IMG/VR virus record: IMGVR_UViG_3300027971_000001
DNA length: 64,000 nt
Source of the DNA: a virus
Lineage: Duplodnaviria; Caudoviricetes
Strand: one strand, 5' to 3'
Shown: positions 15,870-24,865 of the stretch, piece after piece
Numbering within the stretch: position 1 is the first letter of the stretch
Layout of the letters: each line of letters begins with the position of its first letter
The notes under the pieces: generated by a model
Told to the model about the DNA's origin: nothing
Database searches by the model: none
Seen by the model: the letters and a program-made list of their open reading frames with translations, nothing else
Program-made: the position numbers and the translations under genes

Positions 15870-16094
15870 TTATTTCTTGAACTGATATGTTTCAGACAGA
15901 AGTTGGTTTACAAGATCATCAAACTTAACTTCTTCTTTCATAGCTTGCTTAGTAGCAGTAGCATACATGACTTCTTTGGCACGTTTTCCATAGCGTTCTT
16001 TCATGCCCTTCAATCCTTTTTTCATACCTTTAACAATTTTTTCGCGTTTTGTTTTTTGAGCAGAAGTCATCTTTTTTTCATTAATTGTACTCAT
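15870..16094 (-). CDS. Small basic late protein, putative internal head protein
   Basis: KREKIVKGMKK..ERYGKRAKEVMYATATKQAM module; TAAATA 5 nt upstream. Confidence 0.7.
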   Translation of the reverse strand: MSTINEKKMTSAQKTKREKIVKGMKKGLKGMKERYGKRAKEVMYATATKQAMKEEVKFDDLVNQLLSETYQFKK

Positions 16095-16098
16095 AGTT

Positions 16099-17322
16099 TT
16101 ATTTAGCTTTTTTTATCATTTTTGTATCGAAATTAACAGGATTTTGATTTGGATTATTTGCTAAAACAGCAGGGATATATGTTTTACCATTTTTTGCTTG
16201 AAATTCAGGTCCCACAATTGTATAGCTTTTACCTTTCCAAACAATTTCTCCTTTTTTAGTTTGTTCAGCATATTCAGCAGAAGATGGTTCATTTTCATCA
16301 TCCATTTTTTTAGGTTCGGCAGAATCTGTAGCTTGCCAAGTTTTTGTAGTAGGATCATATTGCAATTTTGCAGAAAATTGATCTTTTAATTTGTTTTGAT
16401 CGTCATAAACAAAAAAGTTTGCAGAAGGACTACGAAGACCAAATTTAACAAGAATCGAATTGACCTTTTCATAATCTTCAAAAGGAGGATTTACCCGTAC
16501 ATTTTTTAATTGTACAAATGATTCGCCTCCTGATTGCTTATCACCCAGTACAGATCCTGTAATAACGTGATTTGCACCTTTCTTATCATATTCAATACTG
16601 AATTGCTGACCAGTACGAGGACGATCTTTATGAAACATGCTGCTTCTTTGTTTGAAATCAAAATCACCTATGTTTGTTTTTTGAAGTGTTTTTCCAATTC
16701 GACCCATGATATTATATGCACCAGCAACTTTTTGACCAAGGGTTTTGGCATCTTTACCAAATGCCACATCCTTTCCTATGTCTGCTGCTTTGCCAAGAGT
16801 TCTGCGAACAAATCCTCCGCTTTTTGCTCCAGGAATTTTACTTGCAACAGAAGCAAGAGTATCTGTTGCTTTTTGCGCAGCTTTTCCTAAAGGTCCTTGT
16901 TCATTTAATGCGGACTCTGTATTAAAAGAACGATATGCATTTTTAATATCATCATCCGTTCCTCCATTTTGTTTGGCCAACAATTCAACTTCATCAAATG
17001 TGGAAGAATTTTGTATCTGTTGCAAAACTTGTTCAGGTACTTTGTTAAGAATCAAACGAATAAGATTACGTTTAAATTCATTAAGATTATTTGAAAGAAC
17101 ATTCAATCCTTTGGCAAAAACAGCAGTTTGACGAACCTGATTGTTAGGATCCACAACAAGAATATTCAATACACCTTCGTTCTCATTCAAAACATAACCT
17201 TCATAGCTAGTGTTTCCGTCGAAATCTTCAAGGTTACTAATGGCTGGATCAATTTTAAAACGCATGCGGCGAAGCTTCAGCTTCTCTGTAATTGTTTGCA
17301 AAATGCTATTTTCGAATTTCAC
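16099..17322 (-). CDS. Late protein with capsid-targeting-like leader, putative internal head protein
   Basis: Starts MKFENSILQTITE; TAAATA 5 nt before the GTG. Confidence 0.65.
   Translation of the reverse strand: MKFENSILQTITEKLKLRRMRFKIDPAISNLEDFDGNTSYEGYVLNENEGVLNILVVDPNNQVRQTAVFAKGLNVLSNNLNEFKRNLIRLILNKVPEQVLQQIQNSSTFDEVELLAKQNGGTDDDIKNAYRSFNTESALNEQGPLGKAAQKATDTLASVASKIPGAKSGGFVRRTLGKAADIGKDVAFGKDAKTLGQKVAGAYNIMGRIGKTLQKTNIGDFDFKQRSSMFHKDRPRTGQQFSIEYDKKGANHVITGSVLGDKQSGGESFVQLKNVRVNPPFEDYEKVNSILVKFGLRSPSANFFVYDDQNKLKDQFSAKLQYDPTTKTWQATDSAEPKKMDDENEPSSAEYAEQTKKGEIVWKGKSYTIVGPEFQAKNGKTYIPAVLANNPNQNPVNFDTKMIKKAK
16100..16105 (-). promoter_or_regulatory. Representative late promoter box TAAATA (one of at least 25 near start codons)
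   Basis: Matches the core of the T4 late consensus TATAAATA; gp55 is encoded in the window. Confidence 0.75.
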
Positions 17323-17365
17323 AATATTATTTAGTAAATATTTATGTGCTTATGGGATACAAAAT

Positions 17366-18151
17366 TTAAGCAATGTCCCGACCAACAGTATTTCCACCAC
17401 CAACATTAGCCGGAGGTGTAGCAACATAATTCAAACTAGGCTTTTCGCTAAATTGACCTTTCTTTTCATTATAAGCAGGCAATACATATTCTTTGTTCAC
17501 ATCAATAACAATACCTAATTGTGAAATAAATTTTTTACCAATAAGAACAGGTTGATCGTTTTGTGTTCTGTCTCCTATGCTGAAAGGAACCATCTTGTAT
17601 AAGACACCCCCAAAAACGATGTCTAATGCCACTAGGGGACGTTTTTCCTGCTCACCCGCCCCGATATGTATGCTGACCATGTCCAGAAGAGGTCTGGTCA
17701 GTTCTACATCATTTACACTTGTGAATTTTGCGTACTTATAGCCATTCTTTTCAATGATCTCAGCATTTACACCGCAAAGCACATTGTTGCTGTCGTTTCC
17801 GCTATCGATTTTGGCATCTACGTTTCCCAGACCATCAATATAAACCTTTTCAACTAAACCTATGGTTTGATATTGAAATTTTTCAAAAAAGAAACGAAAA
17901 GGTTTGAAGCTTTCCTTATTCAATTGAATTTCTGTTTTTTCCAGCTTGTCACCTTTGTTCCAATTTTTACCACCATTGGTGGCTTTATATTCAACTTTAT
18001 TACCAACAATATTTCCTTTTTTACCTTTTATTTTGGTAACTTTGGTAACCTTTCCCTTGCTCTTGTAATGCTTGCAGCTTGGATTGGTATTTTTGATAGT
18101 ATCACCCTTATGCAGTTCATTAGGAGCCAGCTTGCAAATACCTTTCTTCAT
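17366..18151 (-). CDS. Basic N-terminal module fused to a retropepsin-like aspartic protease (RimK-associated protease family)
   Basis: AKIDSGN catalytic D-S-G; FSIGDRTQNDQPVLIGKKF flap/C-terminal motif. Confidence 0.75.
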   Translation of the reverse strand: MKKGICKLAPNELHKGDTIKNTNPSCKHYKSKGKVTKVTKIKGKKGNIVGNKVEYKATNGGKNWNKGDKLEKTEIQLNKESFKPFRFFFEKFQYQTIGLVEKVYIDGLGNVDAKIDSGNDSNNVLCGVNAEIIEKNGYKYAKFTSVNDVELTRPLLDMVSIHIGAGEQEKRPLVALDIVFGGVLYKMVPFSIGDRTQNDQPVLIGKKFISQLGIVIDVNKEYVLPAYNEKKGQFSEKPSLNYVATPPANVGGGNTVGRDIA

Positions 18152-18163
18152 AAAGATATTTAA

Positions 18164-23250: not shown

Positions 23251-23672
23251 GATGTTGTTGTTAATTTTTTTGTTAAAGTATCAGCATATTTTGCAAAAGC
23301 ATTAACCACTCCTTGTGTTACAGTGTCCACAACTCGTTTTTGTTGAGGATTCATTAATGTACGAAGAACGCCTATGTCAGATTGAGACATGGATTTAGGA
23401 TCATAACCACCGGTTGATGATTCTTGATCTTCCTCCTCTTCTTGAGAATCAGCATGTGGAGTAACAGCGCCTTTTTGATCTATTTTATATTTTCCTTTTT
23501 TTCCATCCACATCATAACTAATAATTCCACACATTTTTTCCATTCCTTCATATTTGGCTTTTCCGGAAGAAACCATTTTATCAATTAAATTTTTTTGAAT
23601 ATCATTTAATTCATCACCTTTAATGTCCAATTTAAGATATTCTTGTTCAAGTAGTTTATGAAAACGAGGCAT
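23247..23672 (-). CDS. Late hypothetical protein
   Basis: TAAATA 5 nt upstream; starts MPRFHKLLEQE. Confidence 0.65.
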   Translation of the reverse strand: MPRFHKLLEQEYLKLDIKGDELNDIQKNLIDKMVSSGKAKYEGMEKMCGIISYDVDGKKGKYKIDQKGAVTPHADSQEEEEDQESSTGGYDPKSMSQSDIGVLRTLMNPQQKRVVDTVTQGVVNAFAKYADTLTKKLTTTS

Positions 23673-23680
23673 AAAAGTAT

Positions 23681-24220
23681 TTATTCTAATTTCATAGCAT
23701 AATTACGCTTTAAAACGGAATTAGACAGGTTATATTCTTTCAAAATCTTGTGTATGTTCTTCATGCTGAAATTCTTACTACTTTGATTTAACAATGAATT
23801 TATAATTTTACTGGCAATCTTTTTATAAAATATTTTGTCTGAAACAACCAATTTACTAAATTCCGGAAACGAACCCTCATATTCAATCACTGTAAAGCTT
23901 AGATATTTTTCAAATTTATTCAGTATTTTAAGACAAGCAGTATACAGTTCTTTTTGGTCAAAATGTTCTGCAATTTCCAAGTCTTTTACAGGTTTTTCAC
24001 TTACCACAAAAACAATATCTTCTTTTTGACGTTTGATTACAAAATTTGAAAGGATCAGATTGGCCAATTGATAAACAAGAATATTTTTGGCATCCTTGTT
24101 TTTACTCAAAGGTTTTTCCAGTAGTTTGTATTTGTGGCAAGAATTTAGAATTTTGGTTTCAATTTTGTTTGAAAACGCATCCCAGAAATCGACAAATACG
24201 ATGTTATCCTTCTTTTGCAT
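23681..24220 (-). CDS. Hypothetical protein (likely start MQKKDNIVFVDF)
   Basis: Long ORF; internal ATG chosen to minimise overlap with the upstream gene. Confidence 0.55.
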   Translation of the reverse strand: MQKKDNIVFVDFWDAFSNKIETKILNSCHKYKLLEKPLSKNKDAKNILVYQLANLILSNFVIKRQKEDIVFVVSEKPVKDLEIAEHFDQKELYTACLKILNKFEKYLSFTVIEYEGSFPEFSKLVVSDKIFYKKIASKIINSLLNQSSKNFSMKNIHKILKEYNLSNSVLKRNYAMKLE

Positions 24221-24623
24221 CTTTAAACCAATATTCCTTTGGTTTTCCAATTCTAATATTAATGATTCCATTGTAGTACTCTGGAGTTTTTATCACTTCA
24301 TTTTGAATTTGCAATTTTATTTCTTCATATGCCAGTTCCCATTTACTTCTGCAAAACCTTAAAATTTCAAATTTAAAATTTTCTTTTCCGTATTTTTCAA
24401 TATCCTCATTCAGTTCCCGGCAACTTCCTGTATAAGTTTTCCAATCGCTTTCAGAATATGTTATTTTACTATTTTTACGACTTTTCAGTTTTCTTTTTTT
24501 GCGAAACTGAAGTTGTTTCTTTCCAATATATTTTCGGTTATTTTTTAAATTGGTGATCAAATAAATGAAGCCGAAACTTTCATCTTCAAATTTTTCACAA
24601 ATCCAATGACCATAATCATTCAT
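24204..24623 (-). CDS. GIY-YIG (Seg-like) endonuclease
   Basis: GFIYLITNLKNNRKYIGKK, YTGS, ENFKFEIL. Confidence 0.85.
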   Translation of the reverse strand: MNDYGHWICEKFEDESFGFIYLITNLKNNRKYIGKKQLQFRKKRKLKSRKNSKITYSESDWKTYTGSCRELNEDIEKYGKENFKFEILRFCRSKWELAYEEIKLQIQNEVIKTPEYYNGIINIRIGKPKEYWFKDAKEG

Positions 24624-24865
24624 TTAAGATTTCTTCGTTGAATCAGGACTTTTTTCTTTTTTCTTTTACCCTTTTTGGTTTTTTTCCAAGATCCAAAAGC
24701 AAAAGGAATCCTTGCATCACCCGGTGCATATCCATCTCCACTAGAAATAGTTCCAGGCGGGTTAAAGATAGTTCCTATGCTAGGTCCGGCACCAAATACA
24801 CCTCCCGGTCCTGCTGTATTATCTTCATTTAAGATTTTACTAAAAATATTTGAAAAAAGACCCAT
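24620..24865 (-). CDS. Mini-protein: leader, copy of the mature capsid N-arm, and basic tail
   Basis: aa 13-54 match gp23 aa 61-102 at 30/42 positions; TAAATA 6 nt upstream. Confidence 0.85.
   Translation of the reverse strand: MGLFSNIFSKILNEDNTAGPGGVFGAGPSIGTIFNPPGTISSGDGYAPGDARIPFAFGSWKKTKKGKRKKKKVLIQRRNLK

What the first reader, a model, noticed from the sequence alone, without database searches (positions are those of the whole stretch)
15870..24865. Family of late genes sharing a capsid-targeting-like leader: a head cargo-loading system
Seen: otherwise unrelated proteins begin with x-F-x-x-[LI]-x(2-6)-[LI]-x-E. Examples: MKFENSILQTITE (17322), MTTLFDNRILEIIKE (18412), MNFNDLVSQLLEE (18594), MISFKNIKSLLSE (20923), MKFEQILKNKYSLLSE (23250), MPRFHKLLEQE (23672), MGLFSNIFSKILNE (24865), MRFNELINE (50902), MTKNFDSIVKKLSE (51630). 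The motif also occurs internally (KFDDLVNQLLSE in 15870-16094; FSNAFDKIMSNLNE in 18600-19757). Most have a TAAATA box. Known: T4 internal proteins use a ~10-aa capsid-targeting sequence ending in Glu, removed by gp21. Inference: this is a portable tag that recruits diverse enzymes and basic peptides into the head for injection.
Basis: partly seen in the sequence, partly recalled or inferred. Interest (0 to 1): 0.82.

Follow-up and report, generated by a model that had tools for sequence, protein, structure and literature searches.

The report
Head-loading leader peptides on phage proteins
About ten otherwise unrelated late proteins of this uncultured T4-like phage start with the same kind of short peptide, which ends in the cut site of the phage's head-maturation protease. 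It is most likely a T4-style "load into the head, then cut off" tag, a known mechanism seen here in a new lineage with new cargo.

Summary
Every listed leader is in the sequence. The motif is about tenfold enriched at N-termini: 8 genes against 0.6-0.7 expected with a tailored pattern, and 11 against 1.5-1.9 with a simple one (0 of 5000 shuffles for either). It is also enriched in late transcription units (9 of 11 against 26 of 73, P=0.005).

- **Pattern:** the leaders share a pattern, not a sequence: F near -10, a hydrophobic residue at -6, L/I at -3 and -2, E at 0.
- **Protease link:** they end like the N-termini of this phage's own S77 prohead protease and scaffold, and like the predicted gp23 maturation site. 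An 81-aa gene is a copy of the mature gp23 N-arm that starts at that site.
- **Portability:** relatives keep the pattern while the other residues change. A sister lineage, whose ArdC-like protein is about 40% identical, carries the same kind of leader on non-homologous cargo.
- **Virion link:** the small basic cargo modules are fused in cyanophage protein T4-GC119, which a published virion proteome lists as detected.

The T4-like capsid-targeting reading is therefore well supported, but only circumstantially. Cleavage, packaging and injection are untested. This is a new member of a known kind. The scan has reported similar leader sets in other uncultured T4-like phages.

The parts
15870..16094 (-). 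74-aa basic protein (mature pI 10.1). It has a very short MSTINE start and a conserved C-terminal leader-like motif, KFDDLVNQLLSE, six residues before the stop. It is homologous to the first module of cyanophage T4-GC119.
   Evidence: 60% identity over 40 aa to S-SM1 SSM1_115, E 1e-11; TAAATA 5 nt upstream
16099..17322 (-). 407-aa protein of unknown function with a GTG start and the leader MKFENSILQTITE. It has its own late box.
   Evidence: (leader kept in relatives down to 50% identity); no Pfam, PHROG or Atlas match
17366..18151 (-). 261-aa retropepsin-like protein (Pfam Zn_protease PF05618) inside the cluster. It has its own late box but no leader, so its membership in the cargo set is uncertain.
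18164..18412 (-). 82-aa basic protein (mature pI 10.6) with the leader MTTLFDNRILEIIKE. It overlaps the upstream gene. It is homologous to the second T4-GC119 module.
   Evidence: (four leader variants keep F, D, the hydrophobic residues and E, with an indel right after the E)
18409..18594 (-). 61-aa basic protein (mature pI 10.6) with the leader MNFNDLVSQLLEE. It is homologous to the third T4-GC119 module (DACYHKV...WPSAYASG...CRK).
   Evidence: 73% identity over 45 aa, E 9e-22
18600..19757 (-). 385-aa acidic protein with a basic C-terminal module. It has a possible long leader ending DIVKE (residue 25), a conserved internal leader-like site FSNAFDKIMSNLNE (residues 178-191), and VME just before the basic module. 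It is a candidate polyprotein.
19754..20923 (-). 389-aa protein with the leader MISFKNIKSLLSE, an ArdC-N domain and an HExxH metallopeptidase motif (HEVAHEMLH). The late box lies 11 nt upstream.
   Evidence: Pfam ArdcN E 2e-5 and PHROG anti-restriction protein E 5e-12; F4, N6, I7, L11 and E13 are invariant down to 42% overall identity
20942..21166 (+). 74-aa divergently transcribed late gene starting MGMSNDLKKLGDLYCE. It is a weaker candidate: it has L-x-x-E and no F near the start.
22933..23250 (-). 105-aa acidic protein with the leader MKFEQILKNKYSLLSE. It overlaps the upstream gene.
23247..23672 (-). 141-aa protein with the leader MPRFHKLLE (better read as ending at E9). The late box lies 5 nt upstream.
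24620..24865 (-). 81-aa protein: the leader MGLFSNIFSKILNE, then a copy of the mature gp23 N-arm, then a polybasic tail.
   Evidence: residues 11-54 match gp23 residues 59-102 at 68% identity, E 1e-19; the leader pattern is kept in relatives; late box 6 nt upstream
50902..51423 (+). 173-aa SleB-type cell-wall hydrolase (PF07486) with a GTG start. The leader MRFNELINE is followed by a poly-proline linker. The late box lies 5 nt upstream.
   Evidence: the relative G002 has the longer canonical leader MRFEDRIKQLLLE before the same proline linker
51373..51630 (-). 85-aa protein with the leader MTKNFDSIVKKLSE and a polybasic tail (mature pI 11.2). It overlaps the end of the late fibre-like gene at 51627-52781.
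59448..60941 (-). Major capsid protein gp23. The maturation site is predicted after E62 (MVNE, then DNTAA).
   Evidence: alignment with T4 gp23, which is cut after FLTE at E65
61020..61895 (-). gp22-type scaffold. It starts MSKNVVDVLKE and carries about 20 [ILV]xE sites.
   Evidence: PF25623, E 3e-4, below the curated cut-off
61936..62085 (-). 49-aa core-protein candidate in the gp67/68 position. It has LTE at residues 16-18.
   Evidence: inferred from its position between the gp21 and gp22 genes, as in T4
62098..62778 (-). gp21-type prohead serine protease. It starts MNDGLKLIVE.
   Evidence: Pfam Peptidase_S77, E 9e-29

Best explanation
The leaders are capsid-targeting propeptides of the T4 type.

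**Proposed mechanism.** Late in infection the 9-16-residue N-terminal segment is predicted to form an amphipathic helix. Its aromatic and hydrophobic face would be F at -10, I/V/F at -6 and L/I at -3 and -2. This helix binds the scaffolding core as the prohead is built, so the attached protein is enclosed by the gp23 shell. The gp21-type protease then cuts after the L/I-x-E that ends the leader. This frees the mature protein inside the head, where it stays with the DNA. Most of the small cargo is very basic.

**Fate of the cargo.** At the next infection at least part of it is probably ejected with the DNA. Such cargo would include the ArdC-like anti-restriction/metallopeptidase protein, the basic T4-GC119-type modules, the gp23-arm mimic and a cell-wall hydrolase.

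**Internal sites.** Internal and C-terminal copies of the motif are probably extra cleavage sites, which would make some of these proteins small polyproteins.

**Shown versus inferred.** Shown: the motif, its enrichment, its conservation, its portability, the late units, the protease and scaffold genes, and the paralogy with the gp23 cleavage region. Inferred: binding to the core, cleavage, retention in the head and injection.
For: 1. N-terminal enrichment: 8 genes against 0.6-0.7 expected, and 11 against 1.5-1.9, with 0 of 5000 shuffles reaching either count. Late-unit enrichment P=0.005.
2. In a family-weighted logo, position -2 is L/I/V in 100% of leaders and position 0 is E in 100%. This matches T4 gp21's L/I-x-E specificity (PMC9026906).
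3. The same phage has an S77 protease (E 9e-29) and a scaffold. Their N-termini end LIVE and VLKE. gp23 has MVNE at the position equivalent to T4's FLTE cut.
4. The 81-aa protein aligns with gp23 starting at ILNE/MVNE and runs into the mature arm (68% identity, E 1e-19).
5. Relatives keep the key positions while the other residues, the leader length and the following linker vary.
6. In the sister lineage (L021/L022, ArdC-like protein about 40% identical) the same kind of leader heads two SprT-like proteases, a 982-aa SNF2/DEAD helicase, K-rich peptides and orphan proteins. None of these has a homologue in the window.
7. Three basic cargo proteins match successive modules of S-SM1 T4-GC119. There, [IV]xE sites sit at the module junctions. 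T4-GC119 is listed as detected, with 13 peptides, in the virion proteome table of PMC3037559.
8. The T4 capsid-targeting sequence MKTYQEFIAE, read from NC_000866, has the same aromatic / hydrophobic / I-x-E spacing. Residues 4 and 7 do the targeting and residues 8 and 10 the processing.
9. Small cargo has pI 10-11, like the basic T4 internal proteins.
10. A late-only anti-restriction protein is useful only if it is delivered with the DNA (inference).
Against: - There is no proteomic or biochemical evidence for this phage or its close relatives.
- The motif is degenerate, and L/I-x-E is common in this AT-rich proteome. Two genes match by chance.
- The leaders have no sequence identity to the T4 capsid-targeting sequence.
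- Some cluster genes lack a leader. One metagenomic variant has G in place of the terminal E (L009).
- The hydrolase at 50902 sits next to lysis-type genes, so it could have another role.
- The gp23 maturation site is predicted by alignment and has not been determined.
- The column order of the published proteome table was not visible, so assigning the T4-GC119 detection to S-SM1 rests on the paper's main text.
Confidence: 0.62

Rival explanations
1. The leader marks prohead-core or scaffold accessory proteins. They would be taken into the prohead and cut by the protease, as gp22, gp67 and gp68 are in T4, but would mostly be degraded or would stay as DNA-condensing peptides. On this reading the system serves head assembly and DNA packing, and does not deliver effectors.
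For: Many members are tiny, very basic peptides or acidic low-complexity proteins. gp22, gp21 and the 49-aa core candidate carry the same endings. T4 core proteins are cleaved into fragments, and some of those remain in the head.
Against: The ArdC-like protein, the SprT-like proteases, the helicase and the cell-wall hydrolase are enzymes with plausible targets in the host. They have no obvious role in assembly.
Confidence: 0.2
2. The shared N-terminus is a recognition tag for a different late process. Candidates are modification by the genome's radical-SAM or glycosylation enzymes, membrane association, or export in the lysis pathway.
For: An earlier scan case (e1-127136) found a shared phage N-terminal tag linked to a radical-SAM enzyme. 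First-reader notes report radical-SAM genes elsewhere in this genome. The hydrolase at 50902 lies beside membrane-protein genes.
Against: The leaders are degenerate, whereas that earlier tag was a fixed sequence. They always end in L/I-x-E, like the protease's own substrates. The gp23-arm copy starts at the cleavage site. The leaders are not hydrophobic enough for signal or SAR sequences. The cargo includes 400-aa enzymes.
Confidence: 0.08
3. There is no common function. The pattern would reflect composition and generic N-terminal amphipathic helices in an AT-rich phage.
For: Leaders are only 9-64% identical. [IL]xE occurs in 13% of internal 16-residue windows. An early gp32-like gene also matches.
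Against: - Shuffles of the same N-terminal residues never reach the observed counts.
- Hits are enriched in late units.
- Key positions are invariant across 42%-identical orthologues.
- The hydrolase leader changed length yet kept the pattern.
Confidence: 0.07

Closest known systems
[quoted passage not shown]
   Same: - A short N-terminal propeptide sits on otherwise unrelated late proteins.
- It has aromatic plus hydrophobic residues spaced 3-4 apart and ends in L/I-x-E.
- The phage has an S77 protease and a gp22-type scaffold.
- The cargo is basic or counters host defence.
- The idea that T4-like phages use such a sequence to load varied proteins is stated in PMC9026906 and PMC3012670.
   Different: - There is no sequence identity to MKTYQEFIAE.
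- Most leaders here are one helical turn longer (13-16 aa, F at -10) and are degenerate, whereas IPII and IPIII share an identical sequence.
- The cargo differs: an ArdC-like protein, a SleB-like hydrolase, a gp23-arm mimic and T4-GC119 modules.
- Nothing has been tested experimentally.
Cyanophage structural protein T4-GC119 (for example S-SM1 SSM1_115 and the S-E7 'structural protein')
   Same: It carries the same three small basic modules as window genes 15870-16094, 18164-18412 and 18409-18594. It is listed as detected in a virion proteome.
   Different: In cyanophages the modules are fused into one protein of about 500 aa, with [IV]xE sites at the junctions. Here each module is a separate gene with its own N-terminal leader. 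No processing has been described for T4-GC119.
Propeptides of the inner-body and ejection proteins of giant phages phiKZ, 201phi2-1 and SPN3US
   Same: Many head-internal proteins are cut after Glu by a diverged gp21 homologue and are ejected into the host.
   Different: The motif there is S/A-x-E. Those propeptides are longer and carry no recognised short common targeting sequence. The capsids and inner body differ.
Phage P1 Dar system (DarA, DarB, Hdf, Ddr) and plasmid ArdC
   Same: Anti-restriction proteins, including a large helicase-type protein, are packed in the head and delivered with the DNA. ArdC acts in the recipient cell at DNA entry. The sister lineage here pairs a helicase with the ArdC-like gene.
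   Different: P1 has no T4-type L/I-x-E leader system of this kind. ArdC is known from conjugative plasmids and not as phage head cargo. This comparison rests on my own knowledge plus the abstracts of PMC9024508 and PMC12810830.

Membership tests
T4-type capsid-targeting propeptide system | A short N-terminal peptide shared by otherwise unrelated proteins | tested here: met
   8-11 genes against 0.6-1.9 expected. The mature parts are unrelated.
T4-type capsid-targeting propeptide system | The peptide ends in the gp21 cleavage motif L/I-x-E | tested here: met
   Position -2 is L/I/V and position 0 is E in every family. The motif definition is from PMC9026906.
T4-type capsid-targeting propeptide system | The phage encodes an S77 (gp21) prohead protease and a gp22-type scaffolding core | tested here: met
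   PF03420, E 9e-29. PF25623, E 3e-4, below the curated cut-off, but in the gp21-gp22-gp23 gene order.
T4-type capsid-targeting propeptide system | Late expression together with the head proteins | tested here: met
   TAAATA lies 5-11 nt before the starts or before the unit heads. 26 of 84 genes have the box against 0.8 expected. 9 of 11 leader genes are in late units. This is promoter sequence only, with no RNA data.
T4-type capsid-targeting propeptide system | Sequence homology to the T4 sequence MKTYQEFIAE | tested here: not met
   Only the spacing of aromatic, hydrophobic and Glu residues is shared. The leaders are analogous or too diverged to call homologous.
T4-type capsid-targeting propeptide system | The propeptide is removed by the prohead protease | not testable with these tools
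   Indirect only: the 81-aa gene copies gp23 from P4 of its predicted maturation site.
T4-type capsid-targeting propeptide system | The protein is present inside the mature head and is ejected | not testable with these tools
   Indirect only: the homologous modules (T4-GC119) are listed as detected, with 13 peptides, in a cyanophage virion proteome.
ArdC anti-restriction family (cargo at 19754-20923) | An ArdC N-terminal ssDNA-binding domain followed by an HExxH metallopeptidase domain | tested here: met
   Pfam ArdcN, E 2e-5, above the cut-off. PHROG 7245 anti-restriction protein, E 5e-12. The motif HEVAHEMLH is invariant. There was no PDB sequence hit, and the fold model was too poor to use.

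The most novel reading that the evidence does not exclude
The leader would be both a sorting signal and a cleavage site in a very widespread modular system. In this system small basic T4-GC119-type modules and enzymes are shuffled between stand-alone leader-bearing genes and multi-module polyproteins. The prohead protease would cut the polyproteins at internal leader-like junctions.

If this is right, the injected or internal head proteome of thousands of uncultured aquatic phage lineages could be read from sequence. It would include unexpected cargo, such as an ArdC-like anti-restriction protease, a cell-wall hydrolase and a decoy of the capsid protein's N-arm.
Probability: 0.3. Interest if true: 0.65.

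Novelty: new member of a known kind. Interest (0 to 1): 0.5.

Why it matters
If the leader works as in T4, proteins that travel inside the capsid can be predicted from sequence alone for an uncultured phage lineage. These are the first phage proteins to meet the host's defences.

- **Cargo:** here the candidates include an ArdC-like anti-restriction protein and, in the sister lineage, SprT-like proteases and a large helicase. That would be a delivered counter-defence kit comparable to T4 IPI* or P1 Dar.
- **T4-GC119:** the link to cyanophage T4-GC119 gives a testable function (protease-processed internal head peptides) to a very common marine phage protein of unknown role.
- **Practical use:** the leader could serve as a packaging tag for T4-like phages other than T4.

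Tried and rejected
- No whole genome is held for the window, so genome-wide counts were not possible. I used the window, 22 IMG/VR relatives and the 78.7-kb relative G002.
- Megablast of the region against phage records found nothing.
- The strict T4 late box TATAAATA is not enriched in the window (8 against 6.2 expected). The shorter TAAATA placed just upstream of start codons is.
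- A per-gene test of leader against own promoter was not significant. This is because several leader genes overlap or abut an upstream late gene. A test by transcription unit was significant.
- The ESM Atlas gave no usable hit for the 407-aa protein and only weak ones for the 141-aa protein.
- The PDB sequence search gave nothing for the ArdC-like protein.
- AlphaFold on an 8-sequence alignment of the ArdC-like protein gave mean pLDDT 44. Only residues 14-90 were confident, so no fold search was run.
- Literature searches found no paper describing capsid-targeting leaders in cyanophages or uncultured T4-like phages. The library lacks most subscription journals.
- T4-GC422, the S-SSM7 gene with a T4-like MKNFQEFQE start, is not in the published proteome table.
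- I considered recent duplication of a leader-coding DNA segment and rejected it. Nucleotide identity between leaders is mostly 30-58%.

Full report
**What the window is.** The window comes from a distant T4-like myophage.
- It holds a gp23-type major capsid protein (59448-60941, minus strand). This is only about 33% identical to cyanophage capsid proteins.
- It holds a gp22-type scaffold (61020-61895) and a 49-aa protein in the gp67/68 position.
- It holds a Peptidase_S77 prohead protease (62098-62778; Pfam E 9e-29).
- No whole genome is held for the window.
- The late-promoter core TAAATA sits within 25 nt of 26 of 84 start codons, against 0.8 expected. It is usually 5-6 nt upstream.

**Checking the observation.** All nine N-terminal leaders and both internal motifs are present.
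- 17322 and 50902 are GTG starts. Both are supported because relatives conserve the encoded residues upstream of the first ATG.
- A pattern written from the examples matches 8 of 84 gene N-termini. It matches only 20 times in 19,448 internal positions, which predicts 0.6. Shuffling residues 2-22 of every protein gives a mean of 0.72, and 0 of 5000 shuffles reach 8.
- A deliberately simple test (F in residues 2-5 and [IL]xE by residue 16) gives 11 genes against 1.5-1.9 expected, again 0 of 5000.
- Two of the 11 look like chance hits: an early gp32-like gene at 39824 and the gene at 5351-6199.
- Counting genes that overlap or abut a preceding late gene as late, 9 of 11 leader genes are late, against 26 of 73 others (P=0.005).
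- The mature parts are unrelated to each other.
- The leaders are only 9-64% identical in amino acids and mostly 30-58% in nucleotides. They share a pattern, not a recently copied sequence.

**The pattern.** I built a family-weighted logo from all leader variants in the window and its relatives, anchored on the final Glu.
- Position 0 is E in 100%.
- Position -2 is L/I/V in 100%.
- Position -3 is mostly L/I.
- Position -1 is small and polar (N/S/T/E).
- Position -6 is I/V/F.
- Position -10 (or -9) is F.

This spacing would put the aromatic and hydrophobic residues on one face of a helix. T4's IPII and IPIII start MKTYQEFIAE, which I read from NC_000866. That sequence has the same arrangement, one turn shorter. 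In T4, residues 4 and 7 mediate targeting, residues 8 and 10 mediate processing, and gp21 cuts after L/I-x-E (PMC9026906).

**Link to the prohead protease.** Four points tie the leaders to this phage's own protease.
- The protease starts MNDGLKLIVE and the scaffold starts MSKNVVDVLKE.
- The scaffold carries about 20 [ILV]xE sites.
- Alignment with T4 gp23 (cut after FLTE, E65) places this phage's equivalent site at MVNE, followed by DNTAA, after E62.
- The 81-aa gene at 24620-24865 reads MGLFSNIFSKILNE followed by DNTAG. Its residues 11-54 align with gp23 residues 59-102 at 68% identity (E 1e-19). The copy begins at the P4 residue of the predicted cleavage site and continues into the mature N-arm. 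The first ten residues are not gp23-like. This is the most direct sequence evidence that the leader's Glu is a protease site. An earlier first-reader note pointed to this similarity, and I verified it.

**Conservation in relatives.** Twenty-two IMG/VR loci (40-100% identical) and the 78.7-kb relative G002 carry the cluster.
- Within each family the F, the hydrophobic positions and the Glu are kept while other leader residues vary.
- The 82-aa family shows four leader versions (…LFDNRILEIIKE, …LFDNAFKTLLNE, …KFDNLVDSLINE, …DFDSIIQSLLNE), with an 8-9-residue indel immediately after the Glu.
- The ArdC-like protein keeps F4, N6, I7, L11 and E13 invariant down to 42% overall identity.
- The cell-wall hydrolase has MRFNELINE in the window but MRFEDRIKQLLLE in G002. 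In both, the leader precedes the same poly-proline linker and hydrolase domain.
- The internal site of the 385-aa protein and the C-terminal site of the 74-aa protein are conserved in the same way.
- One metagenomic variant has Gly in place of the terminal Glu (L009).
- Tail, baseplate and fibre genes of G002 carry no such leader.

**Portability.** In the sister lineage L021/L022 the ArdC-like protein is about 40% identical to the window's. There, late genes start MNINALINTVLNE, MKFDDLYKSIINE, MKFELLCNQLLAE, MMNFTKMVESELLVLNE and MKFDALYKKIYE.
- Their bodies include a SprT-like metalloprotease, K-rich peptides and orphan proteins.
- A second SprT-like protein starts MKFDDLYNKV but has no Glu ending.
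- The 982-aa SNF2/DEAD helicase carries only a longer, atypical start ending FLVE.
- Apart from the ArdC-like protein, none of these has a homologue in the window.

The tag is therefore lineage-wide and sits on exchangeable cargo.

**The cargo.**
- 19754-20923 combines an ArdC-N domain with an HExxH metallopeptidase motif.
- 50902-51423 is a SleB-type cell-wall hydrolase.
- The small proteins are very basic after leader removal, with pI 10-11.
- Three of them match different positions of one 450-residue PHROG profile.
- By tblastn, the 61-aa protein (18409-18594) finds its module in 366 phage records, almost all of them cyanophages. In S-E7, S-SM1 and S-SSM7, which I inspected, it lies inside proteins of about 500 aa.
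- In S-SM1 protein SSM1_115 (T4-GC119) the three modules occur in order, with VAE, VLE and IQE at the junctions.
- Supplementary Table 8 of Sullivan et al. 2010 (PMC3037559) lists T4-GC119 as 'Structural protein', detected with 13 peptides in the first of three virion proteomes. From the paper's text this is most likely S-SM1. I could not see the column header.

A full HMMER search with the 61-aa protein found 2,775 representative clusters at E up to 0.001.
- Of the 145 best hits with a complete N-terminus, 80 have [ILV]xE within residues 6-18. Typical starts are MKITQITE, MRLHQLTE and MKLEELVGKPITE.
- 116 of 127 internal modules are preceded within 20 residues by [ILMV]xE, against 31% for any 20-mer. 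Part of this comes from one conserved pre-module segment, so these are not all independent events.
- Several polyproteins keep an internal Met at the start of a leader-like segment. This is what gene fusion of leader-bearing units would leave.

**Structure of the region.** The 15.8-24.9 kb block is not a pure cargo cassette.
- The late units are 24865; 23672 with 23250; 20923 with 19757, 18594 and 18412; 18151; 17322; and 16094.
- Between them lie two paralogous genes, at 21596-22123 and 21156-21620, preceded by a strong sigma-70-type promoter (TTGACA, 16 nt, TATTAT).
- There is also a metallophosphatase at 22154-22903.
- An ORF at 24204-24623 has a GIY-YIG-like motif, which I did not test.
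- The retropepsin-like protein at 17366-18151 has a late box but no leader.

**Verdict.** The best explanation is a T4-type capsid-targeting and processing signal (confidence about 0.6).
- The main rival shares the same mechanism but differs in purpose: proteins that are packaged and cut but serve assembly or DNA condensation, and are not delivered.
- A different tag function, or chance, is unlikely.
- The mechanism is known from T4, and reviews already suggest that T4-like phages use such sequences to load varied proteins. This scan has reported similar leader sets in several other uncultured T4-like phages.
- This is therefore a new member of a known kind.
- What it adds is a distinct degenerate leader consensus, new candidate cargo, the gp23-arm copy as internal evidence for the cleavage site, and the split-versus-fused relation to cyanophage T4-GC119.

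Noticed in passing
window 24620-24865 (-): An 81-aa gene consists of a leader, a 68%-identical copy of the mature gp23 N-arm (gp23 residues 59-102) and a polybasic tail. It could anchor DNA to the inner capsid surface, or it could compete with gp23 arms. It is conserved in relatives.
   Followed up: partly
window-wide; e.g. 16094, 17322, 18151, 23672, 24865, 50902, 20942: TAAATA lies within 25 nt upstream of 26 of 84 start codons (0.8 expected), mostly 5-6 nt before the ATG or GTG. This implies very short or absent 5' leaders on late mRNAs. The full T4 box TATAAATA is not enriched (8 against 6.2 expected).
   Followed up: partly
window 62804-63277 (-): A 157-aa protein with a TnsA-like endonuclease N-terminal domain (Pfam E 4e-16) sits just upstream of the prohead protease gene (62098-62778), within the head-gene block. 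This resembles the homing endonucleases inserted in T4 head-gene clusters. A homologue occupies the same position in G002.
   Followed up: no
window 21156-21620 and 21596-22123 (-): Two overlapping paralogous genes of unknown function lie behind a near-consensus sigma-70 promoter (TTGACA, 16 nt, TATTAT, at 22157-22130). They are embedded between late units on the same strand.
   Followed up: no
window 24204-24623 (-): A 139-aa ORF with a GIY-YIG-like motif (GFIYLITN...YIGKK) overlaps both neighbouring genes. It is probably a homing endonuclease. I did not check it against Pfam.
   Followed up: no
L024 4002-4367 (S-SSM7 gene SSSM7_235): A 122-aa basic cyanophage protein starts MKNFQEFQEA, very close in pattern to the T4 sequence MKTYQEFIAEA. 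It lies directly after a protein that carries the basic module. Its cluster (T4-GC422) is absent from the published virion proteome table.
   Followed up: partly
proteins P0001-P0150: The roughly 45-residue module DACYHKV...WPSAYASG...CRK occurs in 2,775 representative clusters (50% identity). It is found at any position in proteins of 57-963 aa, often alongside a second module (SLRDWF...GGWVDC...). It has no Pfam family.
   Followed up: partly
window 51373-51423: The 3' ends of the hydrolase gene (plus strand, ending at 51423) and the 85-aa leader-bearing gene (minus strand, ending at 51373) overlap convergently by about 50 nt.
   Followed up: no
L009 7141-8349: One metagenomic variant of the 407-aa protein has Gly in place of the terminal leader Glu (MKFEDSILQTITG). 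This may be a natural uncleavable variant or a sequencing error.
   Followed up: no
window 49193-50900: A late gene starting MNEIKISE, which I read as a possible GH108-type muramidase (not tested), and two genes with signal or transmembrane-like starts precede the leader-bearing SleB-type hydrolase. The phage therefore seems to carry two different wall hydrolases side by side.
   Followed up: no
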